Both the position numbers and the translations under genes were made by a program. From an uncultured Myxococcaceae bacterium (GTDB lineage Bacteria; Myxococcota; Myxococcia; Myxococcales; UBA5297), in the NCBI GenBank assembly GCA_964485035.1, contig CAZAIE010000001.1, positions 1 to 35,160 of the forward strand: a stretch of 35,160 nucleotides of DNA, written 5' to 3'. Below the pieces are notes generated by a model, which saw only the letters and a list, made by a program, of their open reading frames with translations, did no database searches and was not told the DNA's origin. Numbering within the stretch: position 1 is the stretch's first letter; the number at the start of each line of letters is the position of its first letter. Positions 1 to 23,588 of the stretch are shown here, in pieces.

Positions 1-3000
1 GCTCTTGCCCACCGTGCCCTCTGGGAGAAACTGGGTCGCAAGGCGCACCCGGTCCGGCGCCACGACAGCGAGCGTCAGTGGCTGGGCGGCGGTCTTGCCT
101 GCGGCGTCCTTGACCTCGACGCGGAAGGGGAACGTGCCGTCACGGCCCGGGACGCCTTCCAGCGTGCCGTCCTGGCCGAGCGCGAGCCCAGAGGGCAGCA
201 CTGCCCCAGGCGCGAGCGACCAGGCGTACGGGGGCTTTCCGCCCACGGCCGCCAGCTTCGCAACATAGGGCTTGGAGTACTCGGCCGCCGGGAGGTCCTG
301 GGTCACGACAGTCAGCGGCACTGCAGAGGCGGTCACCTCGAGTGTCAACCGTGCGGTCGCGACCTTCCCTCCCGAGGCGACCTGTACGTCGAACGCGGCT
401 CCGCTCGCCGGAACAGTGGGCAGACCAGCGATGTCGCCAGCGGCCGACAGGGCGAGCCCGGCCGGGAGCTTGGTGCCGTTGGAGAGAGAGAAGGCGTAGC
501 GGCCGTCGCCGCCGCTCGCGTGCACCCGCACCGAGTAGGCCGACTGCACCTGCGCCGCAGGGAGGGTCTTGGTGACGATCGCGAGGCTGTCGGAAACCAC
601 CTTGAACGGCGCCTCCATCACCCCGGTGTTGTTGACCATCAGGATCTCGGGGAGCTTCTGCTCCGGATCGACGATGACTCCCAGGTAGTACTCGCCCGGA
701 AGCAGGTCGGCCGGGAGCACCAGGTTGTCGACCGTGGACTTCTCACCGAAAGCGGGGATGCCCTCGGCCTGCTCGACCGTCCCAGGTGCTGGCGTGAGCA
801 GGCGGTCCGAGCGGGTGACGACCGCGTTCTCGGAGAGGTAGACCGAGTAGGCGATTTTCCGGATGGTGCAGCTACCCGCGACGCAGCCCTCTCCCGCCGG
901 GCAGGTGTCGTCCGTGGTGCAGGCAGCGGTCTCGCAGGTGCCAGAGGTTCCGCAGGACTGGCCCGCAGGACAATTGGCCGGAGCAGTGCAGGACTTGCGG
1001 CAGCGGCCGGTATCGCAGGTCCACCCGGTGCCGCAGTCGGCCGGGACGCCACAGGGCCCCGACCACCCGCTCCCGACGTTCTTGATGACGTGCGTCACGA
1101 CGAGCGAACCCCCGGCGGCGAGGCTGGCCTTGTCGGTGGTGACGCTGCCCACCACGAGGTCGGGCGTCGGCCCGCCAAGGGTGACCTTCCGTCCGCCTGC
1201 CGGCGCCGTGTTGTTGGCCTCGTTGTCCTCCGAAGCCTTGTTGTCCGGGTCCACGAAGGCGAAGAGGTAGAAGGGGCTGGTCGTCAGGTTGCTCGGAAGC
1301 GTGGGCGTCAGGAGCACGTCGCGGCGCTGCTGGACGGCCACGTCGATGGCTTGGGAGTTGCCCAAGACCAGGTCCTTGGCCGGGTCCAGCGCCGCATCGG
1401 TCGAGAGGAAGAAGCGGACGGTGACGCCCTTGACGTCCTCGCCACCCTGGTTGAAGACCGTGGCGCCGATGCGCAGCGGCACCCCGGCATACCCCACGTC
1501 GTCGGAGTACACGCGGGTCAGGGTCAGGTCTGCGGACTGGGTGAAGTGGATCTGCGTGTTCGGCTGGTAGTCGGCGACGGCGCAGGCGGCGGTCGTCCCG
1601 CAGGGCAAGCCCGCGAGACCGAAGACTCCACCCGGGCCCTGGATGCCCACCGCCGCCTTCGGCGCCTTCGAGGCCTCCGGCGGCTGGTAGGCCGACATCG
1701 TGGAGGGTCCATAGGCGAACTCGATCTTCCCGGTGGTCTCGTGGAGCTTGGCCTGGAAGGTCACGCCATTTGCAGCCTTGCCCGCGGTGTCGGGGGCGTA
1801 CCAGACGCGGTCCCACTGGAAGGTGACTACCCGGAGCGGAGTCACGCCGCTCACCGCGTACGAGACCTGGCCCGGGAGGCAGTCCCACTCACCCCACCAA
1901 GGCGCCACGATGGGGAACGCGCCGCCGGGCGCGGAGCTGGGGATGCCCGCGCTCGTCTTGAGGTTGCCGATCGCGCAGCCAGTAGATTGCTGCGCTGTGC
2001 AGGTCGGACCGAACCCGAGGTAGCCACGGCAGCCCACCTGCACGCTGGTGTGCGACTCGCCGTAGAACCGGAAGGCGAACGGGAGCGCCACGACCTGCTG
2101 CGGCCCGTTGGATTGGGTCAGGTCCATGCTGATCTCGCTGCCGCCGACCAGCGGCGAGAAGGGCGCGCTGATCACCGGGGAGAGCTGGTAGGCGGCGTGG
2201 GCGGGCGCGGCGCCGAGGAGGGTCGCGAGCACGGCCACCAGCCCCAGCCCCTTGCGACGGCGCAGGAGGAGCGGCAGCAGCGCGAGCCCGAGGAGCGGGA
2301 AGAGCCCCACCCCTGCGGCCGAGCAGCCAGTGGTCTCTGTCGGGACCGCAGGGGGAATGGCCTTGGGCGCGATACGGATGGTGAGCGGAACCAGGGCCTG
2401 GGCCCCGGCCTCCTCGATGAGGAGCAGCACCGAGTCATAGCTCCGGGGAGCTGCGTCTTCAGGGACCGTCCCGGCGATGCGGCCTTCCGCGCTCAGGCTC
2501 AGCCCCGGAGGCAACTCTCCGCCATAGACCTCGAACTTCGTCCGCGGGCGCGCGCCCAGCGAGAGGTTGAGCGAATACTCGGCCCCCAAAGTCGCCTCCG
2601 GCACTGCCGGCATGGTGAAGGTGGCCGGGCGCGACCGCACGCTCAGGATGAAGGCGCCGGTGTCGGTGAAACCCGCCGCGTCGGTCACCTCCGCGATGAT
2701 TGGGTAGAACCCGGCGCGAGTCGGCGTTCCGAGCAGCGAGTCGCCCTGCAGCCGCAGCCCCTCGGGGATCGACTCGGCGGGGATGGTCCACGTGTACGGT
2801 GCCGTCCCGTACTGCGACTGCAGCTGCTGCCGGTAGGCGATGCCCACCTTCGCGTCCTCGAGCTTCACGGTCGAGACGAAGAGCGTGCCCGGCATCACCG
2901 CCCGCATCGACAACTCGCCGACGACACGGCTTCCGAAGGCGTCCTGGACGGCCACCTTGAAGGTGACGTTCCCGTAGCTCCGCGTGAGCTTGCCGCTGAG

Positions 3001-5715
3001 CTTGCCGTCATGCCCGAGAGTCAGACCGTCGGGGACGCTCCCATCCTCCAGCAGCCACACGTACGGCCGCACGCCGCCGACCGCGGAGAGCTTGACCGAG
3101 TAGTCCAGCCCCACCACTGCGGTGGGGAGCTTCGCCGAGAGGAGCGCCAGCGGGCTGCTGGGCAACACGGCCCGCATCGCCAGGCGCGCGAGGGCGCTGC
3201 GACCACCCGAGGCGACCTTGACCGTGAACACCGAGACCGCGGCCTCGGTGGGCTGGCCCTTCAGCTCGCCCGACGCGCTCAGGGTCATGCCCTTGGGCAG
3301 GTCGCCCTGCCCCGCTTCCACGGTCCACACGTAGGTGCCGTCGCCGCCGGAGGCGACGAGTTGCTGGAGGTAGTCCACGCCGACCAGCGCGTCCGGAAGC
3401 GACGAACTCTCCACGCGCAGGGAGCTGGCCACGACCTCGACCGTTCCCAAGGAGCCCAGTGCGTTGTTCGTCTTGTCCAACTCGGGGAAAGCGTTCTCCG
3501 GGTCGAGCACCAGCCCGACGAAGTAGGTGCCCGGAGAGATGCCCTGGGGAATGAGCACGAGGTCGGTCGCGCGGTCCACGCCGCCCGGCGCGAGGTGCCC
3601 CTCGCCTGCCGCCTTCTCCTTGCCCTCGCCGTCGAGCAGCGCCAGCGGGAGGTCCTCCGAGGAGATGATCTCGTTGGAGGACAGGTAGTAGCGGTAGAGG
3701 AACGGCGCGGCCTCCGGCGAGTCGTTCCCGCGGTTCCCCAGGTTGCGCATCACCCGATAGACCGGGAGCACCTCGCCCACCGCAGCCACCGCGGGCGCCT
3801 GGACCTGGACCGGGGTGAGGTCCATCGCCGGCTGGCGCGTGCCGATGCCCTTGGGCGCCACCGACTTGTTGTTGGTCTTGTTGCTCTCGGGGACGGTGTT
3901 GCGGCAGTCGATGATGACGCCGATGTAGTAGGTCCCATCCGTGAGCGCCTTGCCCGCCGTGTTCTGGGTGGGGATGGTCGCCTCGACCTCGATGTTCTTC
4001 GTCTCCTTGCCCACGTAGGTTTGGTTCAGGAGCAGCGGCTCGTTCGGGGTCATGTCGATGTCGAAGAGCGAGACCATCGGGGTGTCGGAGAGGAGCACGC
4101 AGATGTAGAAGTTCTTCGCCGTCCCGCCGCCTGCATTCATCGCAGTGAACGAAACCCGCACCTTCTCGCCGAAGTAGCCCGTGGTCGTCTCCGGGTAGGG
4201 AGCGGTGATGGACTTCACCTTCACTTCCTTCACCAGGATGTCCGCCGCGGAGATGGTGACCGTCCCGCTCGCCACCGCCGTGTTGTTGGTCTCGCTGAGT
4301 TCCAGGACGTCACCCGTGGGCTTGCCTGTCACGACCGGATCGACGACCAGGATGTAGTAGTACTTCCCGTCCGCCAGGGTGAACGGCAGCTTCGCCGGCG
4401 GGGTCAACTCCAGGGTCTCGCCGCCGCCGATGGCAGGGACGGTGCCGGTGTAGAAGAGCTTGTCGGACGCCGGGACGATCGTCGTACCGGTGGTGAGCCA
4501 GAGTTGGTAGCTGAACTGGACTCCCGACGGGTCGGTTCCGCGGTTGCGGATGGTGACCTGCAGGTTCGCGTCGTCGCCCGGCCCAGCGTTCCCGGGACCA
4601 GAGATGAGCCCCTCCAGGTCCACGCCGATGAGGTACCCCATGCTCACACCAGTATTGTTGGTCTCCAGCGCCTCCTTCACCTCGTTCGTGGGGTCGAGGT
4701 TCACGCCGAGGTAGAAGGTGCCCGCCGCCGGCTTCTCGAACTCCAGCCCGGTCTCGACGTAGTTCCCCTCGGTCAGACCAGCGAGCGTCTCCGGCGCCGT
4801 GTGCGACCGCAGCAACGTGCACTTGGTGGGGTCGTTGAGGACCACCGAGGCCTGCTTGCAGAGGTAGAGGTCGAAGGCGAAGCCCACCGCCGGGTTCTGG
4901 CCCTGGTTCCTCACCCGGACCGTCACGTCGAGGGAGTAGCCCGGGTTGCCGTTGACGGTCGTCGAGGTCAGCGTCGAGCCGATCACGGCGCTCACCAGCA
5001 GGTCGGGGTCCACTGCGGGAGCCACGGAGATCATCTTGCCGGCCGGCCAATCGGCGTTCAGGCACCGGGCCGTGGTGTTGGTGCAGGGCAGGAAGGTCAG
5101 TCCCGCCGTCCCAGTAGCGTCCTCCATTCCCGCTCCGGCCTTGCCCGTGCCCGAGGTCGTGGAGATCGCGCCGTAGTACATGACGATGGCGTTGGTCCCC
5201 TCCTGGAAGTCCACCTGCAGGGTGCGCAGGCCGCCCGAGGAGTAGTGCTCCCAGTCCGACCACTTCACCGAGTAGATGCGGTTGGGGGCCGTGCCCACGG
5301 TCGTCACGTCGACCTTCGCCGTAGTGGACTTCATGTCCGCCATCCAGGGCGCAAGCAGGCCATTCGGCACGGCCGGGTCGGGGAAGTTCTTGGTGTTGTA
5401 GCAATCGCCGACCAAGCCGCCCGTGCACTTCTTCGGGGACCCCGGCTCGAAGATGAAGATGCCGTCCATGGTCACATCGGCCGTGGTGTAGCTCTTCCCG
5501 TAGTAGACGAACGGGAACGGGAAGGTCAGCGTCGCGATTCCGTAGTCCGTTTGCGGCGAACCCGAGGTTCCGAGCAGGGCCACCGAGGACCAGCCGGAGT
5601 AGGGGGGCGCCAGCGCCGGGGTGGGCTGGCTCACCACGTAGACTGCCTGAGCGTGGGCGGCCCCCGGCGCGGCCAGGGCCGCCAGCACGAGGGAGAACGC
5701 GAGCCGCTTCATCAT
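1..5715 (-). CDS. Giant secreted surface/adhesin-like repeat protein, partial. The N-terminus is in the window and the ORF runs off the left edge (at least 1905 codons).
   Basis: The ORF track omits it because there is no stop codon in the window. Manual reverse-complement translation from ATGATG at 5715/5712 gives MMKRLAFSLVLAALAAPGAAHA/QAVYVVSQPTPALAPPYSGW...LTFPFPFVYYGKSYTTADVTMDG. That is a Sec signal followed by an N-domain I read as NIDO-like, on the LPFxFxFYG motif alone. GGAG lies 7 nt upstream of the ATG. No complete ORF is listed in this minus frame anywhere between 1 and 5715, whereas the other frames are fragmented; this fits one uninterrupted frame. I spot-checked translation at 5520-5715, 3300-3360, 2160-2400, 840-1080 and 1-60. 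Repeated CARDB-like modules (...NxG......V.FYLS.D..L...D..L......DP.N.V.E..E.NN) and He_PIG/Ig-like modules (LP.A.VG..Y...L.A.GG..PY.W....G.LP.GL.L...G.L.G.P) are present. Positions 1-60 still encode ...LATQFLPEGTVGKS, the start of another Ig-like repeat. Confidence 0.85.
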   Translation of the reverse strand, partial: MMKRLAFSLVLAALAAPGAAHAQAVYVVSQPTPALAPPYSGWSSVALLGTSGSPQTDYGIATLTFPFPFVYYGKSYTTADVTMDGIFIFEPGSPKKCTGGLVGDCYNTKNFPDPAVPNGLLAPWMADMKSTTAKVDVTTVGTAPNRIYSVKWSDWEHYSSGGLRTLQVDFQEGTNAIVMYYGAISTTSGTGKAGAGMEDATGTAGLTFLPCTNTTARCLNADWPAGKMISVAPAVDPDLLVSAVIGSTLTSTTVNGNPGYSLDVTVRVRNQGQNPAVGFAFDLYLCKQASVVLNDPTKCTLLRSHTAPETLAGLTEGNYVETGLEFEKPAAGTFYLGVNLDPTNEVKEALETNNTGVSMGYLIGVDLEGLISGPGNAGPGDDANLQVTIRNRGTDPSGVQFSYQLWLTTGTTIVPASDKLFYTGTVPAIGGGETLELTPPAKLPFTLADGKYYYILVVDPVVTGKPTGDVLELSETNNTAVASGTVTISAADILVKEVKVKSITAPYPETTTGYFGEKVRVSFTAMNAGGGTAKNFYICVLLSDTPMVSLFDIDMTPNEPLLLNQTYVGKETKNIEVEATIPTQNTAGKALTDGTYYIGVIIDCRNTVPESNKTNNKSVAPKGIGTRQPAMDLTPVQVQAPAVAAVGEVLPVYRVMRNLGNRGNDSPEAAPFLYRYYLSSNEIISSEDLPLALLDGEGKEKAAGEGHLAPGGVDRATDLVLIPQGISPGTYFVGLVLDPENAFPELDKTNNALGSLGTVEVVASSLRVESSSLPDALVGVDYLQQLVASGGDGTYVWTVEAGQGDLPKGMTLSASGELKGQPTEAAVSVFTVKVASGGRSALARLAMRAVLPSSPLALLSAKLPTAVVGLDYSVKLSAVGGVRPYVWLLEDGSVPDGLTLGHDGKLSGKLTRSYGNVTFKVAVQDAFGSRVVGELSMRAVMPGTLFVSTVKLEDAKVGIAYRQQLQSQYGTAPYTWTIPAESIPEGLRLQGDSLLGTPTRAGFYPIIAEVTDAAGFTDTGAFILSVRSRPATFTMPAVPEATLGAEYSLNLSLGARPRTKFEVYGGELPPGLSLSAEGRIAGTVPEDAAPRSYDSVLLLIEEAGAQALVPLTIRIAPKAIPPAVPTETTGCSAAGVGLFPLLGLALLPLLLRRRKGLGLVAVLATLLGAAPAHAAYQLSPVISAPFSPLVGGSEISMDLTQSNGPQQVVALPFAFRFYGESHTSVQVGCRGYLGFGPTCTAQQSTGCAIGNLKTSAGIPSSAPGGAFPIVAPWWGEWDCLPGQVSYAVSGVTPLRVVTFQWDRVWYAPDTAGKAANGVTFQAKLHETTGKIEFAYGPSTMSAYQPPEASKAPKAAVGIQGPGGVFGLAGLPCGTTAACAVADYQPNTQIHFTQSADLTLTRVYSDDVGYAGVPLRIGATVFNQGGEDVKGVTVRFFLSTDAALDPAKDLVLGNSQAIDVAVQQRRDVLLTPTLPSNLTTSPFYLFAFVDPDNKASEDNEANNTAPAGGRKVTLGGPTPDLVVGSVTTDKASLAAGGSLVVTHVIKNVGSGWSGPCGVPADCGTGWTCDTGRCRKSCTAPANCPAGQSCGTSGTCETAACTTDDTCPAGEGCVAGSCTIRKIAYSVYLSENAVVTRSDRLLTPAPGTVEQAEGIPAFGEKSTVDNLVLPADLLPGEYYLGVIVDPEQKLPEILMVNNTGVMEAPFKVVSDSLAIVTKTLPAAQVQSAYSVRVHASGGDGRYAFSLSNGTKLPAGLALSAAGDIAGLPTVPASGAAFDVQVASGGKVATARLTLEVTASAVPLTVVTQDLPAAEYSKPYVAKLAAVGGKPPYAWSLAPGAVLPSGLALGQDGTLEGVPGRDGTFPFRVEVKDAAGKTAAQPLTLAVVAPDRVRLATQFLPEGTVGKS
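2194..2328 (-). other. Internal MYXO-CTERM-like segment fused in frame to a signal-peptide-like segment inside the giant ORF
   Basis: Verified reverse-complement translation of 2161-2400: ...PKAIPPAVPTETTGCSAAGVGLFPLLGLALLPLLLRRRKGLGLVAVLATLLGAAPAHAAYQLSPVISAP... GC + hydrophobic stretch + RRRK has the shape of a myxobacterial C-terminal sorting tail. It is followed, with no stop codon, by a hydrophobic stretch ending AHA/AY and a second copy of the NIDO-like N-domain (ALPFAFRFYGESHTSVQVGCRGYLGFG). In-frame GTG codons lie at 2238 and 2232. Confidence 0.7.
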
Positions 5716-5789
5716 CGTCCTGCTCCATGCGCCGGGACTCGGCGCTCAAGCACTACGTCGGAAAGCAATGCCGGGGTCCACGCACCGGA

Positions 5790-5814
5790 GCGGGACGGCC
5801 CTCCGCCGTCCCGC
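5790..5814 (-). terminator. Stem-loop between the vWA lipoprotein gene and the giant ORF (possible attenuator or weak terminator)
   Basis: gcgggacgg (5790-5798) pairs with ccgtcccgc (5806-5814): a 9-bp perfect GC-rich stem with a 7-nt loop, 16 nt downstream of the upstream gene's stop. There is no U-tract. Confidence 0.3.
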
Positions 5815-5829
5815 TGCCGCCGCGGAAGG

Positions 5830-8800
5830 CTACTGCAGGCAGGCCACGTGGTAGCTGACGGCGATGGTCGAGCCGGGCTCGGGCACCGAGAGCGCATCGA
5901 AGTCGATGGCCGTCGCCGCCGAGTTGAACGACCAACGCGTGTCGTCGTAGGGCCCCTTCTCCGGGTACGGCACGCCGTCCACGGTGATGGTGATCTGCCC
6001 GTTGGCGGTGTCCGGCACGTTGGAGAGGAAGAACCGGGTGCGGTAGCCGAACGCCGTCTGCCCCAGCTTCTCCAGCGTGGTGGCCCAGTTCGGCGTGCAG
6101 ATCTCGTCGGAGACGCCGGCGCTCGCCTGCACCACCTGGCTGACGCGCAGGTTCTGGTGGGCGTCGGACTCGTCGTACGAGCACGAGCCCACCGGGCCGG
6201 TCTTCGGGACGATGCCGTTGAAGGTGAACATGTTCTGCCGCTTGAAGCCCTTAATTGTGAAGAAGGCGTTCAGGTAGAACGAGGTCGGGACGTCGTCCTG
6301 GTCGGCGGCGTCGGAGACCACCACGATGGCCAGATTGGCTTCGTCGCGCAGAAAGTTCTTGCTGCAGCTCGTCAGGTTGGGGTTGGTCAGGGCCAGGTAG
6401 GCCGGACGGATGAGCAACTCGAGGTAGTTGCCGCTGGTGCCCACCTTCACGTTCTGCTTGAAGACCGTCTCCGCGTTCGGGGTCTCGAGGGTGATGACGT
6501 CGTCGTTTCCCGGGGCCTTGAAGAAGCAGCCATTCAGGTCGTCGCCGCTGTCGGTCAACCCGCCGTGGGCCTCGTCCACGCCCGTGGTGGTGACGGCGAT
6601 GTGGTAGTCGACCTGCTGCGCCGCGGCGAACTTGATGAACGAGTCGAAGTTGTTGCCGAGGTTGGTCTGCTTGTCGGACATCGACCCCGAGCTGTCGATG
6701 ACGAAGAGCACGTCGACCTTGGGCTGCGGGTCCTGCGCGAAGATGTCCTCCTGGATCGCGGTGGTGTCGCCGCGGCCAGAGATCGGAATGACCGTGGGCT
6801 GGACCATCTGCGAGGTCTTGAGGGCGATGCTGCCCTGGTCGTCCCCCATGTCCGTCGGCGCGTACTTGGCCTTGAAGTCGGTCGAGTTGCCCGGGGCCAG
6901 GGTGTAGGGCAGGCGCGGCTTCTGGATGATGTGGAACTCCTGCGAGAGCCCCGTCTGCAGGTCGATGGACTCGATGATCTGGTCCTTGGAGCAGACGTTG
7001 TAGACGGTGAAGACGCGCTCGCGCGAGTTGCAGTTGATCTGGATGACGCCGAAGTCCAGCTCGTTGGGCGCGATGAGCAAGCACCCGGTCTGCGCGCTGC
7101 CGGCCAGCGCGACGCGCCCCTCGGGAGCGTCCTTGGACGAGATGTAGAACTCCACCGCGCCGGAGTAGGTGCGTGCGAGCTTCGGGCTGAAGCGCACTGG
7201 AATCTCCAGGGACTTGCCGCCCTCGATCTCGTAGTCGTTGATCGGGCCCTTCACAAGCGTGAAGGCCGGGTCGGTCCCGCGTGCGAACCCTAGTGTAGAA
7301 ACCAAGCACTTGTCCGCCGGGTTGGTCGACTTGTTTCGGATGTTGAACGACAACTGCAGACTCTTGCCTGGCTCCACGTTTCCGAAGTTCACCTGCGGGG
7401 GAACAACGTCGTAGTCGCAGGGCGGCATGGTCACCCCGTTCGCCTCAAGCGGAACCACAGTCACTGGCGCGTACGGGTCGTTCGAGAAGATTTTCAGTTG
7501 CGCGAGCTTTCTCCCTGGAACCTTGGGAGCAAACTTGACCCTCAGATCGGCGTTCTGGTTGGCCTCAGTCCCCGTGCATGATCCAGGATTCACGCAGGGA
7601 GCGGCGAGCCCAGTTGGTGCGTAGCCTTCCGGCGGCCACTCAACCGAGAACTCGCTGTCCGACGGTTCGATGACAACCCGCTTTTCGAGCCAACAGAGGC
7701 CGCGAAGGCAGGTATTCCCGTTCACGCAGTCGGTGTTCTTCGTGCAAGTAATCGCCGAAGCGGAGTCTGGCTCCATCAGCTTCAGATTGTCGTCGGTGAT
7801 CCCGACAACATTGGTCCCAACATTCGCGATAGTGATACGTCGCCGCTGGAAGGTGTCCACGGCGACCGAGCCGAAGTCCAAGCGCGTTGGCTGCACCTCG
7901 ATCGCCGGGCCGCCGCCGATGCCATTGAGGAGGAAGTAGCCGGTGGGGCGCTTGGCGTCGTTGGAGGTGAACCGGAGCTTTGCTTCGTGCTTGCCCAGCA
8001 CGCTCGGCCCGAAGGACAGCTTCACCTTCGCCGACTGACGGGCCTCCACCACCAGCTCCACCTGCTCAGCGTCGTCCTTGGCGAACGCGTTGCCCTTCGA
8101 GGACTCCTGCTCGATGCCCAGCCCGCTGACGGTGATGGGGGTGTTCCCGAGGTTCTTGAAGGTGACCTCGCCCGGGGCCTTGGCCTTGCCGTCCTTGCTG
8201 GGGTTCACGTACCCGAAGTCCAGCAGGCACTCCCACTTCTCCTGGCCGGTCACGGGGTTCTTCACCAGCACCTTGGGCTCGCACTCCAGGACCTGGTCGA
8301 CTCCCTGGCCGATGAGGGGGAGCACCACCGCACACATCGCCGGCTCGCTGATGGACAGCGCGGCCTGGTGCGGCCCCACGTGGTTCGGCTTGAACTCGAT
8401 GGGGACGACGATGTCGCCGTGCTTCGGGACCAGCATCTTGCCGGGGGTGAAGTTCGTGAGGCTGAAGGTCCCCTTGTCGGACTCCGCGATGAGGCCCTCG
8501 ACGTTGACCGTCCAGTCGAGCTCGGTGATGTTCTGGATCTTCACCTGCATGGGGAACGAGGTGCCCAGCGCCACCGAGCCGAAATCCACGTTCTCGACCG
8601 GGGTGACGACGCAGCCGCCCTTCACGCCGCGCCCGCTGAGGTTGATGACCAGCTCCGTGTTCTCGGACTGGGCGAGCTTCAGGCGGACCACGCCGGTGTG
8701 AGCCCCATCGGTCTTGGGCTCGAAGTAGAACGTGAGCTCCTGCTCCTGCTGGGCCTCGAGGTTGAAGTTTGTGATCTCGTAGTTGAACGAGACCTCGTCG

Positions 8801-9075
8801 AAGCCCGGGGCCTTCTCGATGGCGGTCACCTCCAGGATGCCGATCCCCAGGTTCTTCACCACGACCTTGCGCTCGACCCGCGTATCGACGAGCTGCGGCC
8901 CCCACTCGAGGGTCGTGGTCTCGACCTCACGCTTCCCGTCGATGGCGTCGTGCTCGATGATGGCGCCGCGCCCCTGAGCAGTCACAACAGGTGGATCGCC
9001 TTCGCATCCCTCGCAGCCGACGAGCAAGAGAAGCCCCGCGATCGCGGAAATAGCCAACCACTTGTTGTGGCGCAT
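5830..9075 (-). CDS. Large lipoprotein (1081 aa) with about six ASH/choice-of-anchor-D-like Ig modules and a C-terminal von Willebrand factor A (vWA) domain
   Basis: Complete ORF. N-terminus MRHNKWLAISAIAGLLLLVGC has a lipobox (LVGC). GGGAG lies 6 nt upstream of the ATG. The module hallmark x-DFG-x-V recurs (VDFGSVALG, LLDFGYV, RLDFGSVAV, VNFGNVEPG, ELDFGVIQI). vWA MIDAS motif DVLFVIDSSGSMS at residues about 788-800 (vWA roughly nt 6198-6720), followed by ...AVTTTG... and ...VVVSDAADQDD. Amino-acid composition is natural, unlike the overlapping shadow ORFs. Confidence 0.92.
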   Translation of the reverse strand: MRHNKWLAISAIAGLLLLVGCEGCEGDPPVVTAQGRGAIIEHDAIDGKREVETTTLEWGPQLVDTRVERKVVVKNLGIGILEVTAIEKAPGFDEVSFNYEITNFNLEAQQEQELTFYFEPKTDGAHTGVVRLKLAQSENTELVINLSGRGVKGGCVVTPVENVDFGSVALGTSFPMQVKIQNITELDWTVNVEGLIAESDKGTFSLTNFTPGKMLVPKHGDIVVPIEFKPNHVGPHQAALSISEPAMCAVVLPLIGQGVDQVLECEPKVLVKNPVTGQEKWECLLDFGYVNPSKDGKAKAPGEVTFKNLGNTPITVSGLGIEQESSKGNAFAKDDAEQVELVVEARQSAKVKLSFGPSVLGKHEAKLRFTSNDAKRPTGYFLLNGIGGGPAIEVQPTRLDFGSVAVDTFQRRRITIANVGTNVVGITDDNLKLMEPDSASAITCTKNTDCVNGNTCLRGLCWLEKRVVIEPSDSEFSVEWPPEGYAPTGLAAPCVNPGSCTGTEANQNADLRVKFAPKVPGRKLAQLKIFSNDPYAPVTVVPLEANGVTMPPCDYDVVPPQVNFGNVEPGKSLQLSFNIRNKSTNPADKCLVSTLGFARGTDPAFTLVKGPINDYEIEGGKSLEIPVRFSPKLARTYSGAVEFYISSKDAPEGRVALAGSAQTGCLLIAPNELDFGVIQINCNSRERVFTVYNVCSKDQIIESIDLQTGLSQEFHIIQKPRLPYTLAPGNSTDFKAKYAPTDMGDDQGSIALKTSQMVQPTVIPISGRGDTTAIQEDIFAQDPQPKVDVLFVIDSSGSMSDKQTNLGNNFDSFIKFAAAQQVDYHIAVTTTGVDEAHGGLTDSGDDLNGCFFKAPGNDDVITLETPNAETVFKQNVKVGTSGNYLELLIRPAYLALTNPNLTSCSKNFLRDEANLAIVVVSDAADQDDVPTSFYLNAFFTIKGFKRQNMFTFNGIVPKTGPVGSCSYDESDAHQNLRVSQVVQASAGVSDEICTPNWATTLEKLGQTAFGYRTRFFLSNVPDTANGQITITVDGVPYPEKGPYDDTRWSFNSAATAIDFDALSVPEPGSTIAVSYHVACLQ

Positions 9076-9206
9076 GTGTCACTCCCTCTGACGTGGCCTC
9101 GGTCGCCCCGTTGCCGGCCGGAAGATACAAGGCGCCCATTCTGGCGTCCGGGTGGGTGAGCGTCAAGCAACGAAAAAACCCGGGGTCTTGGCTTGCCGCT
9201 GTGCGG

Positions 9207-9226
9207 CTATACTCCCAGTCCGCATG
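9207..9226 (+). promoter_or_regulatory. -10-like TATACT hexamer 11 nt upstream of the HAD gene ATG (possible leaderless or short-leader promoter)
   Basis: ggcTATACTcccagtccgcATG. No Shine-Dalgarno sequence lies in between. The same TATACT-N9-ATG arrangement occurs on the minus strand at 28746-28761. Confidence 0.3.
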
Positions 9227-9829
9227 CATCCAAGAGCCCTGTTGTTCGACCTCGATGGTGTCCTCGTTCGCAGCGAAGAGGCGTGGTTTCGGTCGGTTGA
9301 GGCCGCTGGAAGTCGCTTCCGCGGCACCCCCGTGACTCGCTCCGAATTCACTCCCACTTTTGGCCAAGGCACCTCGGCCGACATCCGGGTCTTCGGCTTG
9401 CGATGCACTCCCGCCGAGCTCGATGAGCACTACGTCGAGACCTTTCCCTGCTACGCGGACTCCGTCTGGGTCAATCCCGACTCGGGGCCGCTCCTGCAGA
9501 CGCTGCGAGAGCGAGGGCATCGACTGGCGCTGGTGACCAACACCGTGTCGGCACTGGCCAGGGTGATCCTGGCGCAAGCGAAGCTGGCCTCGGCCTTCGA
9601 CGTGCTGGCCTGTGCAGACTTGGTTCCCAGGTCCAAGCCAGCGCCAGACCTGCTGCACTACGCCCTGGAAGGCCTGAAGGTGCCTGCGTCCGAAGCCTGG
9701 ATGATCGGCGACTCGCGTTACGACCGGGAGGCGGCTGCAGCAGCCCACGTCCACTTCGTAGGGCTGGGCCTCGATGGAGCCGCGCGAGTGGAGAAGCTGG
9801 GCGACCTCATGAAGCTCCTCGACCGATAG
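9224..9829 (+). CDS. HAD-superfamily hydrolase (phosphatase, subfamily IA-like)
   Basis: MHPRALLFDLDGVLVRSEE carries HAD motif I (DxDGVL). LVTNT matches motif II and K...GDSRYD matches motifs III/IV. I chose the internal ATG at 9224 over the track's longer 9152 start because the 24 extra residues look non-coding. Confidence 0.85.
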   Translation: MHPRALLFDLDGVLVRSEEAWFRSVEAAGSRFRGTPVTRSEFTPTFGQGTSADIRVFGLRCTPAELDEHYVETFPCYADSVWVNPDSGPLLQTLRERGHRLALVTNTVSALARVILAQAKLASAFDVLACADLVPRSKPAPDLLHYALEGLKVPASEAWMIGDSRYDREAAAAAHVHFVGLGLDGAARVEKLGDLMKLLDR

Positions 9830-9845
9830 GCCGAGTAACCTCCCA

Positions 9846-12353
9846 CTACACCGTGGTGAGCCGCTTCGACTCGCTGGGCTTCTCGGCCGGCTTCTCCTCG
9901 ACCTTCGGGACCTCGGCGAGCGCAGGACGGGAGCCGCCGCCCGGGACGGCCGCAGCAGGGTAGTCCGGACGCGTGTGGTAGATGCCGGTGAGGGTCCGGT
10001 AGAACGCCCGGGCGATCTCGTTGAGATCGCGCAGCGTGAGGTCGCACTCGTCGAGCTGACCGTCGGCGAAGATGCCGTTGATGATCTTCTGGACCAGCGC
10101 CTGCAGCTTTGCCGGGGTGGGCTCCTGCATCGCCCGGGAGCTGGCCTCGACCGCATCGGCGATCATCACCAGCGCGGTCTCGCGGGTCTGGGGCTTCGGG
10201 CCGCCGTAGCGGTACAGCCCTTCTTCCACGGGTGACGTGTCCGGCTTGCCTTCCAGGTCCTTGGTCGCCTTGTGGAAGAAGTAGCCGACCAGCCGCGTGC
10301 CGTGGTGCTGCGGGATGGCGTCGGCGACCTGCTTGGGCAACTTGTACTGCCGGGCCATCTCCATACCGTCGGTGACGTGGCGCTTGATGATGAGCGCGCT
10401 CATCTGCGGCGCGAGCTTGTCGTGGCGGTTGTCGCCGCGCTGGTTCTCGCCGAAGTAGAGCGGGTTCTTGCCCTTCCCGATGTCGTGGTAGTAGGCGCAC
10501 ACCCTGGCCAGCAGCGGGTTCGCGCCGATGGCCTCCGCGGCTGCCTCCACCAGGCTGCCGATGATGATCGAGTGGTGGTAGGTCCCCGGGGCCTGGACGA
10601 TGAGCTCCTTCAGCGCCGGGTGGTTCAGGTTCGCCAGCTCGAGCAGCTTGATGTCGGTCGTGTACCCGAACGCGGCCTCGACGAGCGGGGTCACGCCCAT
10701 GACCAGGATGGGCACCGCCAGCGCGCCACTGAGGAAGCCGCCCGCGCACCCCACCGCGACGCTCCAGCCGTTGGGCTTGTTGGTCAGCAGCGCGAAGCAG
10801 ATGACCGCGCACACGTTGGCGACGCCCGTGTAGAGCCCGGCCCGGAACAGCGCTGCCCGGTCGTTGGCGCGCGCCACCCGCGCCGAGGCGACCAGCGATC
10901 CCAAGAGCGCATAGAGCCCGAATTCCAGTGAGTTACCGACGAGAATGCCGACGAGACCCGAGAAGATGATGCTGAAGACCACCGCCGCCTCGGCCGTGAG
11001 CACGAAGCGGATGAGCATCGCCCCGGCGGCGAAGGGCGCGGCGTAGTAGAGAGCCTCTCCGCTGATCTGCGGGAAGCGGTCACGCAGGGCGTCGAAGATG
11101 GTGACGCTCAGGTTCACTAGCCCCAGCATCCCGACGACGGAGAAGGCCCCCAAGAGCGCGTCCTTCCGAGTCGGCCGGAACCGCCGCAGCGACGCCCGGG
11201 CGAACCCGTAGACGACCAGCACCACCAGCACTGCCACCAGGCCACCGCCGAGACGGACCAGCAGGCTCTCTTCGATCTTCGTCTGGCTGCGGATGGCACC
11301 GAAGATGACCAGATGCCGGTGCTCGATACGCTCGCCGTCGCCGATGATCTTCTCGCCCTTCTTGAGCTGGATGATCACCGGCTTCATGGAGTCCGACGCC
11401 GCCTGGCGCCGGCTCTCGGTCTCCTCGCGGTTGTAGCGGAGGTTGGCGCGCACCTCGCGGGAGGCGAGCATCGCCATCGCCCGGCGCAGCGACTGCGGCA
11501 GCTCGGTCGAGAGGTCGTTTGCCCAGCGCTCTGCGTCCTGCCGCACCTCAGCCTGGTCGCGGATGCCCGAGACGTCCGTGAGCACTTTCTCGCTCACCGT
11601 CTCGCCGCCGCTCTTCCGGCGCACGGTGATCCCCCGTCCGGAGGAGAGGGCAAGGGGCTCGCGGTACTCGGCGACCATCTGACCGGTCGCACGGGTGACC
11701 AGTCGCTCGGCCTCGCGTTGGATGTCCTCTCCGAAGCGGGCTTCGATGAAGGCCTTGAGTGCTTCGTCGTCGAGCTGCGTCTCCAAACGGCGATGCCACT
11801 CTTCCCGTCGCTCCAGCCAGACCTTCACCAGACCTTCAGGGACCTGGGACTCGTCTTTCCTGGCGGCTGGCCGCTTCTTGGGGTCCTCGGGGCGCGGCTC
11901 GACCTCGTGGGCCTTGAGCTTGACCTCCTCGGCCTTGCCGACCTCGCGCATGTACTGGAACGCCGAGCGGACCCGCTCGTGGGCCGACTCAGCGACCGTG
12001 ACGTCGTAGTCATAGACCGGCAGGACCGCGTCCCGGGCCTCGGCTCTCTTCCGGCGTGTGGTCTCCTCGTCAGGGATGTCGTAGTCGCGGGTCGCCTTGA
12101 CGACGGTGTTCGAGAACTGCCCGATGGAGTCGTCGCCGTACGGAATCCGCTGGCTGAAGAGCCCAGGGGTCAGGAGGTAGGCGCAGGCCAGCGCCACGAC
12201 GCCCAGGACCAGGAGGTTGGCGCCCCGGTTCAACCACCGCGCCCGGCGGTCAGCTTGGGAGGGCGGACGCTCCAGTGTGGGCTCGGTCTTCCCGGTCACT
12301 GGACCGGGTTTCGCGGCATCCCCTCTGGTGTCGTTCGGAGGCATGGCCCTCAA
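9846..12353 (-). CDS. pgpH: 7TM receptor with intracellular HD/HDIG phosphohydrolase domain (PgpH-like, candidate cyclic-di-AMP phosphodiesterase)
   Basis: 835-aa ORF: an N-terminal TM helix, a large charged extracytoplasmic domain, about 7 TM helices, then an HD domain (HHSIIIGSLVEAAAEAIG...YYHDIGKGKNPLYF...HHGT). The track start is TTG at 12353; ATG at 12344 is an equally plausible start. Confidence 0.88.
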   Translation of the reverse strand: MRAMPPNDTRGDAAKPGPVTGKTEPTLERPPSQADRRARWLNRGANLLVLGVVALACAYLLTPGLFSQRIPYGDDSIGQFSNTVVKATRDYDIPDEETTRRKRAEARDAVLPVYDYDVTVAESAHERVRSAFQYMREVGKAEEVKLKAHEVEPRPEDPKKRPAARKDESQVPEGLVKVWLERREEWHRRLETQLDDEALKAFIEARFGEDIQREAERLVTRATGQMVAEYREPLALSSGRGITVRRKSGGETVSEKVLTDVSGIRDQAEVRQDAERWANDLSTELPQSLRRAMAMLASREVRANLRYNREETESRRQAASDSMKPVIIQLKKGEKIIGDGERIEHRHLVIFGAIRSQTKIEESLLVRLGGGLVAVLVVLVVYGFARASLRRFRPTRKDALLGAFSVVGMLGLVNLSVTIFDALRDRFPQISGEALYYAAPFAAGAMLIRFVLTAEAAVVFSIIFSGLVGILVGNSLEFGLYALLGSLVASARVARANDRAALFRAGLYTGVANVCAVICFALLTNKPNGWSVAVGCAGGFLSGALAVPILVMGVTPLVEAAFGYTTDIKLLELANLNHPALKELIVQAPGTYHHSIIIGSLVEAAAEAIGANPLLARVCAYYHDIGKGKNPLYFGENQRGDNRHDKLAPQMSALIIKRHVTDGMEMARQYKLPKQVADAIPQHHGTRLVGYFFHKATKDLEGKPDTSPVEEGLYRYGGPKPQTRETALVMIADAVEASSRAMQEPTPAKLQALVQKIINGIFADGQLDECDLTLRDLNEIARAFYRTLTGIYHTRPDYPAAAVPGGGSRPALAEVPKVEEKPAEKPSESKRLTTV

Positions 12354-12380
12354 AGGAAACGCCGCGCGGCGGCGCGGCGA

Positions 12381-12402
12381 GGCGGATCGTGGCCGATCCG
12401 CC
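12381..12402. promoter_or_regulatory. Perfect 9-bp inverted repeat in the divergent pgpH / DUF721 intergenic region (candidate operator or hairpin)
   Basis: ggcggatcg-tggc-cgatccgcc, followed by ccccattttc. Confidence 0.3.
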
Positions 12403-12443
12403 CCCCATTTTCAACCTTCGCCGCCCTGCCCTCTTCCACGTCC

Positions 12444-12472
12444 TTGACGCAGCCCACCCACAAGGCGATACC
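12444..12472 (+). promoter_or_regulatory. Candidate sigma70-type promoter for the DUF721 gene
   Basis: TTGACG (12444-12449), a 17-nt spacer, then GATACC (12467-12472), with ATG at 12480 only 7 nt further on. This suggests a leaderless transcript. The -10 match is weak. Confidence 0.25.
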
Positions 12473-12479
12473 CGACCCA

Positions 12480-12779
12480 ATGGCGCGCTCCCACTTCGAG
12501 GACATGAAGGGTCCGCTCTCCCGGGCCCTACGCAAGGTCGCCGAGGCGGGTCCAGCCTCCGTGCTCGCTCCGGTCTGGGGCGAGGTCGTTGGCGCTGCCC
12601 TCTCCGAACGCTCTCGACCGGTCCTGCTCCAGGACGGCGTCCTCACCGTCGAGGCCGACCCGACGTTCATCGAGGACTTCGAGCGCGCCCGAGCGACCCT
12701 CCTCGAGCGGCTCAACGCTCGCCTGGGCCGCAACGCCGTCCGCACTCTCCGCTTCCTTCGCCAGGCAGGTCGCCGGTGA
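12480..12779 (+). CDS. DUF721 (DciA-like) small protein, 99 aa
   Basis: MARSHFEDMKGPLSRALRKV...LAPVWGEVVGAALSERSRPVLLQDGVLTVEADPTFIEDFERARATLLERLNARLG has the DUF721 shape (W..ivG......s.p..l..g.L.v.v.s..w..el). It is the natural-looking tail of the track ORF 11313..12779. Confidence 0.8.
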   Translation: MARSHFEDMKGPLSRALRKVAEAGPASVLAPVWGEVVGAALSERSRPVLLQDGVLTVEADPTFIEDFERARATLLERLNARLGRNAVRTLRFLRQAGRR

Positions 12780-13924: not shown

Positions 13925-13926
13925 GG

Positions 13927-22696: not shown

Positions 22697-23575
22697 TCAA
22701 GCCCCCATCCCCACCGCCCGCCCGATGGCCGCGACGATGGCCTCGCCATCGCGGCGCACCGTCGACTTCCCGACCCCCTTCACCTTCTCCAGCTCCTCGC
22801 AAGTCCGCGGCAGCCGCCTCGCCAGCTCGAGGATGGCCTCGTCCCCGTAGATCTTGAACGGGGGTCGGTCCGCGGCCTGCGCCCGCTCCTCACGCAGCAG
22901 GTACAGCCTCCGCACCACCTCGCACGACGCCGGCTCGAGCCCACGCACCCCGCGGATCTTCCGGTACCCCTCTGGATCGAACCGCTTGGGGCGCGGCTCG
23001 CACGCGGCCTGTCGCTGGAACAGCTTCTGCGCCGCGGCAGCCCTGCCCTCCGCCTGCAGCCGCTCCCCGAGCCGGTCCCGCAGCGGCAGGAGATAGCGCG
23101 TGTCGGTGTGCGCGTAGGCGAGCTGCTCCGCGCTCAGCGGCCGCCGTCCCCAGTCCGAGCGCTGGTGCTCCTTGGCGAGCACCACCCCGAACTCCCGACG
23201 GACCAGCGCCGCGAGCCCCAGCTCCGGGCAGCCCAGCACCTTCGCCGCCAGCATGGTGTCGAACAGCCGCGGAAAGCGGACCCCGAAGTCGCGCTTCAGC
23301 GTCCGCACGTCGTAGTCCGCCGCGTGCGTCACCAGCTCGAGCCCCTGGGTCGCGAAGAGCGACCGCAGTGCCGGTCCCAGCTCAACCTTGAGCGGGTCGA
23401 GCGCGTAGTCCGCCTCGCGCGTCGAGACCTGCACCAGGCAGACCCGCTCGAAGTACGCGTGGAAGCTGTTGCTCTCGGTGTCCAGGGCGAGCGCAGGCTC
23501 CGCCGCGAGCCGCGGCAGGAGCAGCGCGAGCGCCTCCGCGGTCTCGATGAGCTGCGTGGGCCGCTGTGGCTCCAT
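22697..23575 (-). CDS. rnd: Ribonuclease D (DEDD 3'-5' exonuclease plus HRDC)
   Basis: The internal ATG at 23575 is preceded by GGAGG (5-nt spacing). MEPQRPTQLIETAEAL...LALDTESNSFHAYFERVCLVQVST...HAADYDVRTLKRDFG...AYAHTDTRYLLPL are the Exo I-III motifs. The C-terminal region is HRDC-like. Confidence 0.88.
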   Translation of the reverse strand: MEPQRPTQLIETAEALALLLPRLAAEPALALDTESNSFHAYFERVCLVQVSTREADYALDPLKVELGPALRSLFATQGLELVTHAADYDVRTLKRDFGVRFPRLFDTMLAAKVLGCPELGLAALVRREFGVVLAKEHQRSDWGRRPLSAEQLAYAHTDTRYLLPLRDRLGERLQAEGRAAAAQKLFQRQAACEPRPKRFDPEGYRKIRGVRGLEPASCEVVRRLYLLREERAQAADRPPFKIYGDEAILELARRLPRTCEELEKVKGVGKSTVRRDGEAIVAAIGRAVGMGA

Positions 23576-23588
23576 CGCGGCCTCCGGC

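What the first reader, a model, noticed from the sequence alone, without database searches (positions are those of the whole stretch)
2190..2330. A C-terminal sorting tail sits in the middle of a giant ORF, fused in frame to a signal peptide
**What the sequence shows.** The minus-strand frame reads ...TETTGCSAAGVGLFPLLGLALLPLLLRRRKGLGLVAVLATLLGAAPAHAAYQLSP... with no stop codon. The first half (GC + hydrophobic helix + RRRK) has the form of a MYXO-CTERM sorting signal, which should be the last residues of a protein. The second half looks like the h- and c-regions of a Sec signal ending AHA/A.

**Repeated architecture.** The sequence after the junction restarts the architecture seen at residue 1 of the ORF: NIDO-like LPF.F.FYG domain, then CARDB-like modules, then Ig-like modules.

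**Possible explanations.**
- Two tandem paralogous adhesin genes have been welded together by loss of a stop/start junction.
- There is a sequencing or assembly error.
- The second protein is made by internal initiation at GTG 2238 or 2232.
- The two hydrophobic segments form a helical hairpin (TM - RRRK loop - TM) that displays two large ectodomains from one polypeptide.

The last option would be an unusual topology for this protein class.
Basis: partly seen in the sequence, partly recalled or inferred. Interest (0 to 1): 0.68.

Follow-up and report, generated by a model that had tools for sequence, protein, structure and literature searches.

The report
Surface-protein genes fused through sorting signals
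Neighbouring myxobacterial surface-protein genes have been joined into one giant gene, with the first protein's membrane-sorting tail running straight into the second's export signal, and this junction recurs in at least 56 related protein clusters, so it probably yields separate proteins after cutting in the membrane.

Summary
A minus-strand ORF starts at ATG 5715 and runs past base 1 with no stop. It contains ...TETTGC-SAAGVGLFPLLGLALLPLLL-RRRK-GLGLVAVLATLLGAAPAHA|AYQ... (2340..2191).

- **Tag:** on its own, the first half passes the NCBIfam MYXO-CTERM model TIGR03382. It falls just short of TIGR03901.
- **Not an error or a one-off:** a Myxococcales MAG orthologue (about 55% identical) keeps the junction in frame. 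It has a second junction: tag, lipoprotein signal peptide, then a Cys-rich lipoprotein.
- **Family-wide:** of the best 150 cluster representatives (50% identity), 56 have such internal junctions, and two ORFs have four modules. In 59 tag segments the Cys is invariant, and 51 match TIGR03901. Of 58 internal signal peptides, 54 keep A-x-A.
- **Origin:** a syntenic locus (L003) encodes the orthologous modules as separate genes with stops, spacers and start codons. The ORF is therefore a translational fusion of adjacent cistrons.

**Likely mechanism (inferred):** the tag helix stops transfer, RRRK stays cytoplasmic, and the signal peptide restarts export. Myxosortase and signal peptidase then release separate proteins.

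A 2025 paper noted one internal MYXO-CTERM (MXAN_5598) as a probable fusion. This is a new variant of a known kind.

The parts
1..5715 (-). Giant fused ORF, at least 1905 codons. Starts at ATG 5715 and is cut at its 3' end by the window edge.
   Evidence: no stop codon, GC3 0.91. CARDB x4 and He_PIG x6.
5650..5715 (-). N-terminal Sec signal peptide of module 1 (MMKRLAFSLVLAALAAPGAAHA | QAVY).
   Evidence: Read from the sequence. Hydrophobic segment at residues 5-19.
4936..5649 (-). N-terminal domain of module 1 (distantly NIDO-like, LTFPFPFVYYG).
   Evidence: paralogous to the module 2 domain; no direct Pfam NIDO hit, but homologues do hit.
2323..2340 (-). MYXO-CTERM signature TETTGC. Cys1131 (2325..2323) is the predicted lipidation and cleavage residue.
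   Evidence: The Cys is invariant in 59 of 59 aligned internal tags.
2263..2322 (-). Hydrophobic helix of the tag (SAAGVGLFPLLGLALLPLLL). Predicted stop-transfer segment, N-out/C-in.
   Evidence: the 17-residue core has mean Kyte-Doolittle hydropathy 2.27.
2251..2262 (-). RRRK. It is both the basic tail of the tag and the only possible n-region for the following signal peptide. Predicted cytoplasmic loop.
   Evidence: The loop has a median of 5 residues across 58 homologous junctions.
2194..2250 (-). Internal signal peptide h- and c-regions (GLGLVAVLATLLGAAPAHA). Predicted signal peptidase I site AHA|A between 2194 and 2193.
   Evidence: The N-terminal signal peptides of homologues align to this stretch. 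A-x-A is kept in 54 of 58 internal copies.
1..2193 (-). Module 2, incomplete: second NIDO-like domain (2193..1456), then CARDB, a Cys-rich insert and He_PIG repeats.
   Evidence: Orthologous to the stand-alone 976-aa gene of L003.
5830..9075 (-). Upstream 1081-aa lipoprotein with ASH/Cep192-type Ig domains. It is the conserved syntenic neighbour of the module genes.
   Evidence: LLLVGC lipobox. Orthologue present in L001, L003, L006 and L007.

Best explanation
The ORF is a translational fusion of two adjacent cistrons of a conserved myxobacterial surface-protein operon. A third cistron may follow beyond the window edge. Each unit has kept its own sorting signals: a Sec signal peptide at its start and a MYXO-CTERM tag at its end. 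At the weld, the stop codon, spacer, start codon and n-region of the downstream gene are gone. The tag's Arg cluster (RRRK) now also serves as the n-region of the next signal peptide.

**Proposed biogenesis (inferred, not shown):**
1. The N-terminal signal peptide sends module 1 through Sec.
2. The tag helix (residues 1132-1151) halts transfer with RRRK in the cytoplasm.
3. About five residues later, the second hydrophobic segment inserts N-in/C-out and restarts SecA-driven export of module 2. This gives a tight helical hairpin.
4. [quoted passage not shown]
5. Signal peptidase I cuts after AHA1174 and frees module 2.
6. A 43-residue hairpin peptide (S1132-A1174) is left in the inner membrane for degradation.

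The result is the same set of mature proteins that the unfused operon makes, from one translation event.
For: **Shown:**
- The frame is open across the junction.
- The tag passes TIGR03382.
- Orthologue L001 keeps the junction in frame with 3n indels.
- L001 also has a second junction: tag, then lipoprotein signal peptide, then Cys-rich protein.
- 58 internal tag/signal-peptide hairpins sit directly before internal copies of the N-domain.
- A whole-length scan finds such junctions in 56 of the best 150 representatives. The commonest layout (34 representatives) is SP-module-[tag+SP]-module-C-terminal tag. Two ORFs have four modules.
- 51 of 59 internal tags match TIGR03901 at E <= 0.01 (best 3.9e-10), and the Cys is invariant.
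- A-x-A is present in 54 of 58 internal c-regions, against 11% of random 12-residue windows from the same proteins.
- The syntenic loci L002 and L003 carry the orthologous units as separate genes with their own stops, spacers, starts and signal peptides.
- L001 has no start codon in either junction.

**From the literature:** MrtX cleaves MYXO-CTERM. One internal MYXO-CTERM (MXAN_5598) is proposed to be a gene fusion that is still processed. Sorting tags work in mid-protein (PMC11980579, citing Navarre & Schneewind 1994 and Abdul Halim et al. 2017).
Against: - No experimental or proteomic evidence of cleavage at either site exists for any family member.
- No SignalP or DeepTMHMM was available, so the signal peptide and topology calls rest on hydropathy, the A-x-A rule and positional homology with N-terminal signal peptides.
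- The window's tag is 1.5 bits below the TIGR03901 cutoff.
- No mrtX (CPBP) gene was found among the window ORFs scanned, and the genome outside the window is unknown.
- Whether MrtX accepts a tag whose basic tail continues into another helix is untested.
- The window ORF's 3' end was not seen.
Confidence: 0.68

Rival explanations
1. The hairpin is not cut, or is cut on one side only. It then permanently anchors two large periplasmic ectodomains in the inner membrane as one bitopic-hairpin protein.
For: The topology (N-out, Arg-rich cytoplasmic loop, C-out) follows from the sequence. PMC11980579 reports that some uncleaved MYXO-CTERM protein persists without MrtX.
Against: The two cleavage determinants are conserved far beyond what an anchor needs: the Cys is invariant in 59 of 59 tags, 51 of 59 match the MYXO-CTERM HMM, and A-x-A is kept in 54 of 58. 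Orthologous units work as separate proteins in L003. At second junctions the downstream unit carries a lipobox, which implies cleavage by LspA.
Confidence: 0.15
2. Module 2 is made mainly by internal translation initiation at GTG 2238 or 2232, so the locus still behaves as two genes. Read-through of the junction would be a tolerated by-product.
For: In-frame GTG codons at 2238 and 2232 follow an SD-like AAGGGG. Start-type codons also occur at the start of the h-region in L006 junctions 1 and 2 and in L007.
Against: - With no stop codon, ribosomes translating module 1 must continue into module 2 regardless.
- L001 junctions 1 and 2 have no ATG, GTG or TTG. L006 junction 3 has one only deep in the h-region.
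- A product starting at GTG 2238 would be M-AVLATLLGAAPAHA, with no basic n-region.
Confidence: 0.1
3. The junction is a sequencing or assembly artefact, or a recent inactivating lesion (pseudogene), in this genome.
For: No read-level data were available. No relative above about 57% identity was found.
Against: The same in-frame junction occurs in independent assemblies from NCBI, JGI and Logan, across lineages down to about 30% identity. GC3 is uniformly high across the ORF.
Confidence: 0.02

Closest known systems
MXAN_5598 of Myxococcus xanthus: internal MYXO-CTERM motif (Discussion of PMC11980579, mBio 2025)
   Same: A MYXO-CTERM tag in mid-protein, after a large adhesin region. The authors attribute it to fusion of two genes and propose it is still processed by myxosortase. 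The downstream part also needs export (OM beta-barrel plus OmpA domain).
   Different: - It is described as a single atypical case ('in rare cases').
- No following signal peptide or hairpin topology is discussed.
- The partner is a different protein type.
- Here the junction is a family-wide design with 2-4 units, two kinds of downstream signal (SPase I type and lipoprotein type), and a syntenic unfused counterpart.
- I could not retrieve the MXAN_5598 sequence to compare the junction.
Ordinary C-terminal MYXO-CTERM surface proteins such as TraA and MXAN_4924 (TIGR03901/TIGR03382; MrtX substrates)
   Same: N-terminal signal peptide, Ig-like adhesin domains, and a Gly-Cys signature followed by a hydrophobic helix and an Arg cluster. 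The HMM matches.
   Different: In those proteins the tag is the last residues of the chain. Here at least 750 residues, forming a second complete secretory protein, follow in frame.
Haloferax volcanii HVO_0405, an ArtA substrate with a central PGF-type tripartite signal (Abdul Halim et al. 2017, cited in PMC11980579; details from my own knowledge)
   Same: A sorting tag that is recognised although it is not at the C-terminus.
   Different: It belongs to an archaeal, Tat-dependent system with a different enzyme class. As far as I recall, the part after the tag is not re-exported by a signal peptide.
Flavivirus and pestivirus polyproteins in the ER (own knowledge)
   Same: One chain carries alternating stop-transfer helices and internal signal sequences. 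Signal peptidase cuts on the lumenal side and releases separate exported proteins.
   Different: Those are eukaryotic viral systems. No lipid-anchoring sortase-type enzyme is involved, and there is no evolutionary relation.
E. coli leader peptidase (Lep) H1-P1-H2 topology (own knowledge)
   Same: N-out helix, positively charged cytoplasmic loop, N-in/C-out helix, then a large SecA-dependent periplasmic domain.
   Different: Lep's second helix is an uncleaved anchor. Its loop is longer, and there is no large domain before H1.

Membership tests
MYXO-CTERM sorting domain (NCBIfam TIGR03901 / TIGR03382) | Signature motif with an invariant Cys (Gly-Cys) at the start of the domain | tested here: met
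   TETTGC at residues 1126-1131. The Cys is invariant in 59 of 59 aligned internal tags of the family.
MYXO-CTERM sorting domain (NCBIfam TIGR03901 / TIGR03382) | Score above the curated HMM cutoff | tested here: inconclusive
   TIGR03382 scores 20.8-22.3 bits against a cutoff of 15.85, so it is met. TIGR03901 scores 18.5 against a cutoff of 20, so it is just missed. 51 of 59 family tags match TIGR03901 at E <= 0.01. The hit is lost when the full-length ORF is scanned.
MYXO-CTERM sorting domain (NCBIfam TIGR03901 / TIGR03382) | Hydrophobic transmembrane helix followed by a cluster of 2-5 basic residues | tested here: met
   GVGLFPLLGLALLPLLL (mean KD 2.27) followed by RRRK.
MYXO-CTERM sorting domain (NCBIfam TIGR03901 / TIGR03382) | Location at or very near the C-terminus of the protein | tested here: not met
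   At least 750 residues follow in frame. This is the anomaly itself. In the unfused orthologues (L002, L003) the tag is C-terminal.
MYXO-CTERM sorting domain (NCBIfam TIGR03901 / TIGR03382) | N-terminal signal peptide on the same protein | tested here: met
   MMKRLAFSLVLAALAAPGAAHA|Q. Judged by hydropathy and the A-x-A rule only. No SignalP was run.
MYXO-CTERM sorting domain (NCBIfam TIGR03901 / TIGR03382) | Genome encodes myxosortase MrtX (CPBP family) and many other tagged proteins | not testable with these tools
   Only 35 kb of the genome is available. No CPBP hit was found among the ORFs scanned.
Sec-type signal peptide cleaved by signal peptidase I | Basic n-region, hydrophobic h-region of 7-15 residues, c-region with small residues at -3 and -1 | tested here: met
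   RRRK / GLGLVAVLATLLGA / APAHA|A. A-x-A occurs in 54 of 58 homologous internal copies, against 11% of random windows. The stretch aligns with the N-terminal signal peptides of homologues.
Sec-type signal peptide cleaved by signal peptidase I | Located at the N-terminus of the translated chain | tested here: not met
   It begins at residue 1156 of the ORF. The orthologous gene in L003 has it at the true N-terminus.
NIDO domain (Pfam PF06119) | Score above Pfam's gathering threshold | tested here: not met
   Neither window copy gives a hit, even at E <= 10. Five of ten short homologues of the domain pass (25.2-49.2 bits against a cutoff of 25). The relation is therefore distant and transitive only.
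CARDB (PF07705) / He_PIG (PF05345) adhesin-type repeats | Score above the gathering threshold | tested here: met
   CARDB 140.4 bits in 4 stretches. He_PIG 153.6 bits in 6 stretches.

The most novel reading that the evidence does not exclude
Myxobacteria make true secretory polyproteins. Two to four complete envelope proteins are translated as one chain and threaded through Sec in alternating stop-transfer and re-start steps. They are then separated inside the membrane by myxosortase on one side of a hairpin of roughly 45 residues (43 in the window) and by signal peptidase I or II on the other. The fused state would be kept by selection because it forces equal amounts and same-site export of partners that assemble on the cell surface. 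If so, the tag/signal-peptide hairpin is a natural, portable 'self-resolving' linker for exported proteins in bacteria.
Probability: 0.35. Interest if true: 0.75.

Novelty: new variant of a known kind. Interest (0 to 1): 0.55.

Why it matters
C-terminal sorting tags (LPXTG, PEP-CTERM, PGF-CTERM, GlyGly-CTERM, MYXO-CTERM) are defined and annotated by being at the end of a protein. This case shows three things.

- **Compatible topologies.** The tag (N-out/C-in) and a signal peptide (N-in/C-out) fit together, so neighbouring exported-protein genes can lose the stop/start between them and apparently keep working. This state is widespread and long-lived in one family.
- **Natural substrates for open questions.** These proteins could test whether myxosortase acts on internal tags, in what order lipidation, MrtX and signal peptidase act, and what happens to the excised hairpin.
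- **A warning for annotation.** Single 'giant adhesins' of 2000-4000 residues in Myxococcota may be two to four proteins. Tag HMMs miss internal copies when whole proteins are scanned.

Tried and rejected
- **The look-up of encoding contigs on the neighbouring 1081-aa gene:** meant to extend the window leftwards, but the protein is not on record. The 3' end of the window's ORF stays unseen.
- **Word-indexed protein search with the junction-spanning 420 aa:** one irrelevant hit only. The exhaustive HMMER search was needed.
- **Metagenome contig scan with the two-sequence alignment:** nothing found.
- **Pfam NIDO on the window's own N-domains:** no hit. It is supported only through homologues.
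- **Supplement of PMC11980579 for the MXAN_5598 junction:** Table S1 is an image with no sequence.
- **PMC5350275 (HVO_0405 paper):** not held.
- **Literature searches** for internal sorting signals or internal signal peptides in bacteria: nothing relevant.
- **Tat export of module 2:** considered because RRRK is followed by a hydrophobic stretch. Set aside because the unfused orthologue's signal peptide (MMRAVTLIAF...) has no twin arginine. It was not formally tested.
- **Programmed frameshift or stop read-through:** rejected. There is no stop in the frame, and the other two frames across the junction are Arg/Pro-rich nonsense.
- **My first strict regex and the whole-protein detector:** they missed some junctions, for example junction 1 of L001 and P0003. 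The counts are therefore lower bounds.
Full report

Yes. Translating the minus strand of window 1-6000 gives an uninterrupted frame from MMKRLAF... to window base 1. The ATG is at 5715 with GGAG 8 nt upstream. That is 1905 codons, cut by the window edge. Third-position G+C is 0.91 against 0.51 at position 2, so this is the coding frame. The 2257-aa ORF at 520..7293 on the plus strand is its antisense shadow in a G+C-rich genome.

The six-residue signature TETTGC includes Cys1131 at 2325..2323.

| Element | Residues | Window coordinates (minus strand) |
|---|---|---|
| TETTGC | 1126-1131 | 2340..2323 |
| SAAGVGLFPLLGLALLPLLL | 1132-1151 | 2322..2263 |
| RRRK | 1152-1155 | 2262..2251 |
| GLGLVAVLATLLGAAPAHA | 1156-1174 | 2250..2194 |
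| AYQLSP... | from 1175 | from 2193 |

The other two frames across the junction are Arg/Pro-rich nonsense.

Scanned alone, the tag segment passes NCBIfam TIGR03382 (GC_trans_RRR, 'MYXO-CTERM sorting domain-containing protein'): 20.8-22.3 bits against a cutoff of 15.85. It reaches 18.5 bits on TIGR03901 (MYXO-CTERM), whose cutoff is 20. The hit disappears when the whole ORF is scanned. This may be why such internal tags go unannotated.

The ORF has CARDB and He_PIG repeats. The part after the junction is a collinear paralogue of the part before it. The N-domains are 27% identical over 343 aa (E = 6e-19), and the later parts 37% (E = 6e-43).

'NIDO-like' is only indirectly true. Neither window copy hits Pfam NIDO, but five of ten short homologues pass its gathering score.

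**2. Is it an error or a one-off?**

Neither. The one relative in the GTDB species-representative genomes is L001, a Myxococcales MAG (contig DASXVQ010000140.1). It is 53-57% identical across the junction query. It reads ...STGGGCAAGGAGLMPIFGLLALAPLWLRRRRAGLAAAALAVGLLAAGPARAEYRLWP... in frame. It differs from the window by two one-residue indels within the tag/signal-peptide stretch and one just upstream, all in multiples of three.

Its complete 2606-codon ORF has a second junction of the same kind...PVDTGCSAGSGALSFWPAALGLLSLLRRRRSPQLPPVRALGLLALLAVAFLALSCGGNK.... That is a tag followed by a lipoprotein-type signal peptide and a Cys-rich repeat protein.

An exhaustive HMMER search with 321 residues spanning the junction found 1806 cluster representatives (50% identity level) at E <= 1e-3 and 245 at E <= 1e-10. 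Among the best 150:

- I found 58 internal hairpins (Cys-tag helix, basic loop, second hydrophobic stretch) directly before internal copies of the N-domain. The loop has a median of 5 residues and the second stretch a median of 17.
- A whole-length scan found such junctions in 56 representatives.
- The commonest layout (34 representatives) is signal peptide - module - [tag + signal peptide] - module - C-terminal tag.
- Six representatives also scored a second junction with a lipoprotein signal. L001 and P0003 have both junctions too, although that scan missed their first one.
- P0007 (4011 aa) and P0012 (4029 aa) have three internal junctions each, so four modules.

The tag and signal-peptide features are conserved:

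- In an alignment of 59 tag segments the Cys is the only invariant column.
- 51 of 59 match TIGR03901 at E <= 0.01 (best 3.9e-10), and 36 match TIGR03382.
- A strict A-x-A sits in the c-region of 54 of 58 internal signal peptides. It occurs in 11% of random 12-residue windows of the same proteins.
- The N-terminal signal peptides of the homologues align to the internal h-region of the query (query positions about 58-64 onward).

Public names for these proteins are generic or wrong: 'putative Ig domain-containing protein', 'MYXO-CTERM domain-containing protein', 'subtilase family serine protease'.

**3. Where did it come from?**

P0005 (976 aa) is the fourth-best hit and is a stand-alone module. 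It has its own start, its own signal peptide and a C-terminal tag. Its contigs L002 and L003 carry a syntenic locus, gene by gene:

- a 1029-aa ASH/Cep192-type lipoprotein
- a 1177-aa module
- a 1176-aa module
- a 976-aa module
- a 421-aa Cys-rich lipoprotein

The spacers after the three module genes are 13, 70 and 75 nt.

Gene ends and starts are ordinary. One module ends ...GATGCSTAGTGELSFVAALLVMLPMLRRIRRRVRLGDEP*. A spacer with GAGGAA follows, then MMRAVTLIAFSLAVALPGVARA|MYD.... That module ends ...LLRRRRTN*, and after another spacer the lipoprotein's signal peptide ends ...AFAAAAC|GDPQQ....

BLASTP shows orthology unit by unit:

| Window or L001 unit | L003 gene | Identity |
|---|---|---|
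| Window module 1 | 1176-aa gene | 42% over 1171 aa |
| Window module 2 | 976-aa gene | 46.8% over 735 aa |
| Window upstream 1081-aa lipoprotein | 1029-aa gene | 46.5% |
| L001 module 3 | 421-aa gene | 52% |

The upstream lipoprotein gene is also next to the fused ORFs in L001, L006 and L007. So the giant ORF is a translational fusion of adjacent cistrons of a conserved operon.

A rough NJ tree of the N-domains (217 columns, no support values) puts most internal (module 2) copies in clades apart from most N-terminal (module 1) copies, though the separation is not clean. It also nests the unfused singles (P0005, P0100, P0080, P0090) among fused ones. This suggests several fused/split transitions. 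I do not regard the number or direction of events as settled.

**4. How does it most likely work?** (inference from anatomy plus published knowledge)

PMC11980579 shows that MrtX (myxosortase, CPBP family) cleaves MYXO-CTERM. Its model has these steps:

- Sec export.
- Anchoring by the tag helix, with the Arg cluster in the cytoplasm.
- Lipidation of the invariant Cys.
- MrtX cleavage on its distal side.

In the fused chain the tag helix has the orientation of a stop-transfer segment (N-out/C-in). The next hydrophobic stretch has the orientation of a signal peptide (N-in/C-out). RRRK can serve as the positive-inside determinant of both. The downstream unit has lost its own Met and n-region (compare MMRAVTL... 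in L003).

The predicted intermediate is a tight helical hairpin with two large periplasmic domains. Cleavage at Cys1131 by MrtX and after AHA1174 by signal peptidase I would release the same mature proteins as the unfused operon. A 43-residue hairpin peptide would remain. At second junctions the downstream cut would be made by LspA at a lipobox.

The strongest indirect support is that both cleavage determinants stay conserved in the fused state, and that every module keeps a signal at each end. None of this has been tested experimentally.

**5. Rivals**

- **Permanent double-ectodomain anchor.** The topology allows it, but it does not explain why the Cys signature, the A-x-A site and the lipoboxes are conserved.
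- **Internal initiation.** The window has in-frame GTG codons at 2238 and 2232 behind an SD-like AAGGGG. Some relatives have start-type codons there. L001 has none in either junction, and L006 junction 3 has one only deep in the h-region. Upstream ribosomes must read through in any case. It may add to the main route but cannot replace it.
- **Artefact or pseudogene.** Contradicted by conservation across independent assemblies.

**6. Comparison with what is known**

[quoted passage not shown] It describes MXAN_5598 (adhesin, tag, then OM barrel/OmpA) as a probable fusion of two genes whose N-terminal part is still processed. It cites Navarre & Schneewind 1994 and Abdul Halim et al. 2017 for tags that work in mid-protein. 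The idea of an internal tag produced by fusion is therefore published.

What I did not find in the searchable literature:

- the obligatory pairing of the internal tag with an in-frame signal peptide, which gives the hairpin logic
- its conservation across a large family with 2-4 units and two kinds of downstream signal
- the syntenic unfused counterpart

By function it resembles the alternating stop-transfer and signal sequences of flavivirus polyproteins and the H1-P1-H2 topology of E. coli leader peptidase (own knowledge). It is not related to either.

As a MYXO-CTERM domain it meets the Cys, helix and Arg-cluster criteria and one of the two HMM cutoffs. It fails the 'C-terminal' criterion by construction.

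**7. Verdict**

- Novelty: new variant of a known kind.
- Interest: 0.55. The finding is solid, family-wide, testable and useful for annotation. The core idea has one published precedent, and the processing step is still inferred.

Noticed in passing
L001 13412..13651 (+), within ORF 6944..14764: The orthologous ORF has a second in-frame junction. A MYXO-CTERM tag (VDTGCSAGSG...LLRRRR) is followed by a lipoprotein-type signal peptide (...AFLALSC|GG) and a Cys-rich repeat protein of about 400 aa. The hairpin would carry a lipidated Cys at each end. The same design occurs in P0003, P0019, P0026, P0028, P0033, P0058, P0088 and P0104.
   Followed up: partly
P0007 (4011 aa) and P0012 (4029 aa; L006 6001..18090, GCA_011392945.1 contig WUUC01124925.1): Two ORFs have three internal tag/signal-peptide hairpins each plus a C-terminal tag. 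That is four complete secretory modules in one reading frame.
   Followed up: partly
window 5830..9075 (-): A 1081-aa lipoprotein (LLLVGC lipobox) with ASH/Cep192/HYDIN-type Ig domains lies directly upstream. It is conserved in that position in L001, L003, L006 and L007, so it is probably a functional partner of the modules. Its role is unknown.
   Followed up: partly
window 520..7293 (+): A 2257-aa open frame lies antisense to the giant ORF and to part of the next gene. It is a shadow ORF of the high-G+C, high-GC3 coding strand, not a gene.
   Followed up: yes
window 1..5715 (-), whole-protein HMM scan: The MYXO-CTERM models give no reportable hit when the full 1905-aa protein is scanned. They score above or near cutoff on the isolated 37-67-aa segment. 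Internal tags are therefore probably under-annotated in public genomes.
   Followed up: partly
window about 900..1150 (-), ORF residues about 1525-1600: Module 2 carries a short Cys-rich insert (GPCGVPADCGTGWTCDTGRCRKSCTAPANCPAGQSCGTSGTCETAACTTDDTCPAGEGCVAGSC) between CARDB-like units. Module 1 lacks it. It is conserved in L001 and resembles the repeats of the downstream Cys-rich lipoprotein.
   Followed up: no
P0052 (1287 aa), residues about 1027-1287: After a second tag this public protein continues as an Arg/His-rich nonsense-like sequence. It looks like a frameshifted or mis-called continuation at a junction in that contig.
   Followed up: no
window 9846..12353 (-), 12275..13924 (+), 22697..24515 (-), 28397..29353 (+): Ordinary chromosomal neighbours: a 7TM-HD receptor, a CAP-domain protein, RNase D-like and pseudouridine-5'-phosphate glycosidase-like genes, and a Maf-like protein. 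No CPBP/MrtX or type II secretion gene was seen among the ORFs scanned.
   Followed up: partly
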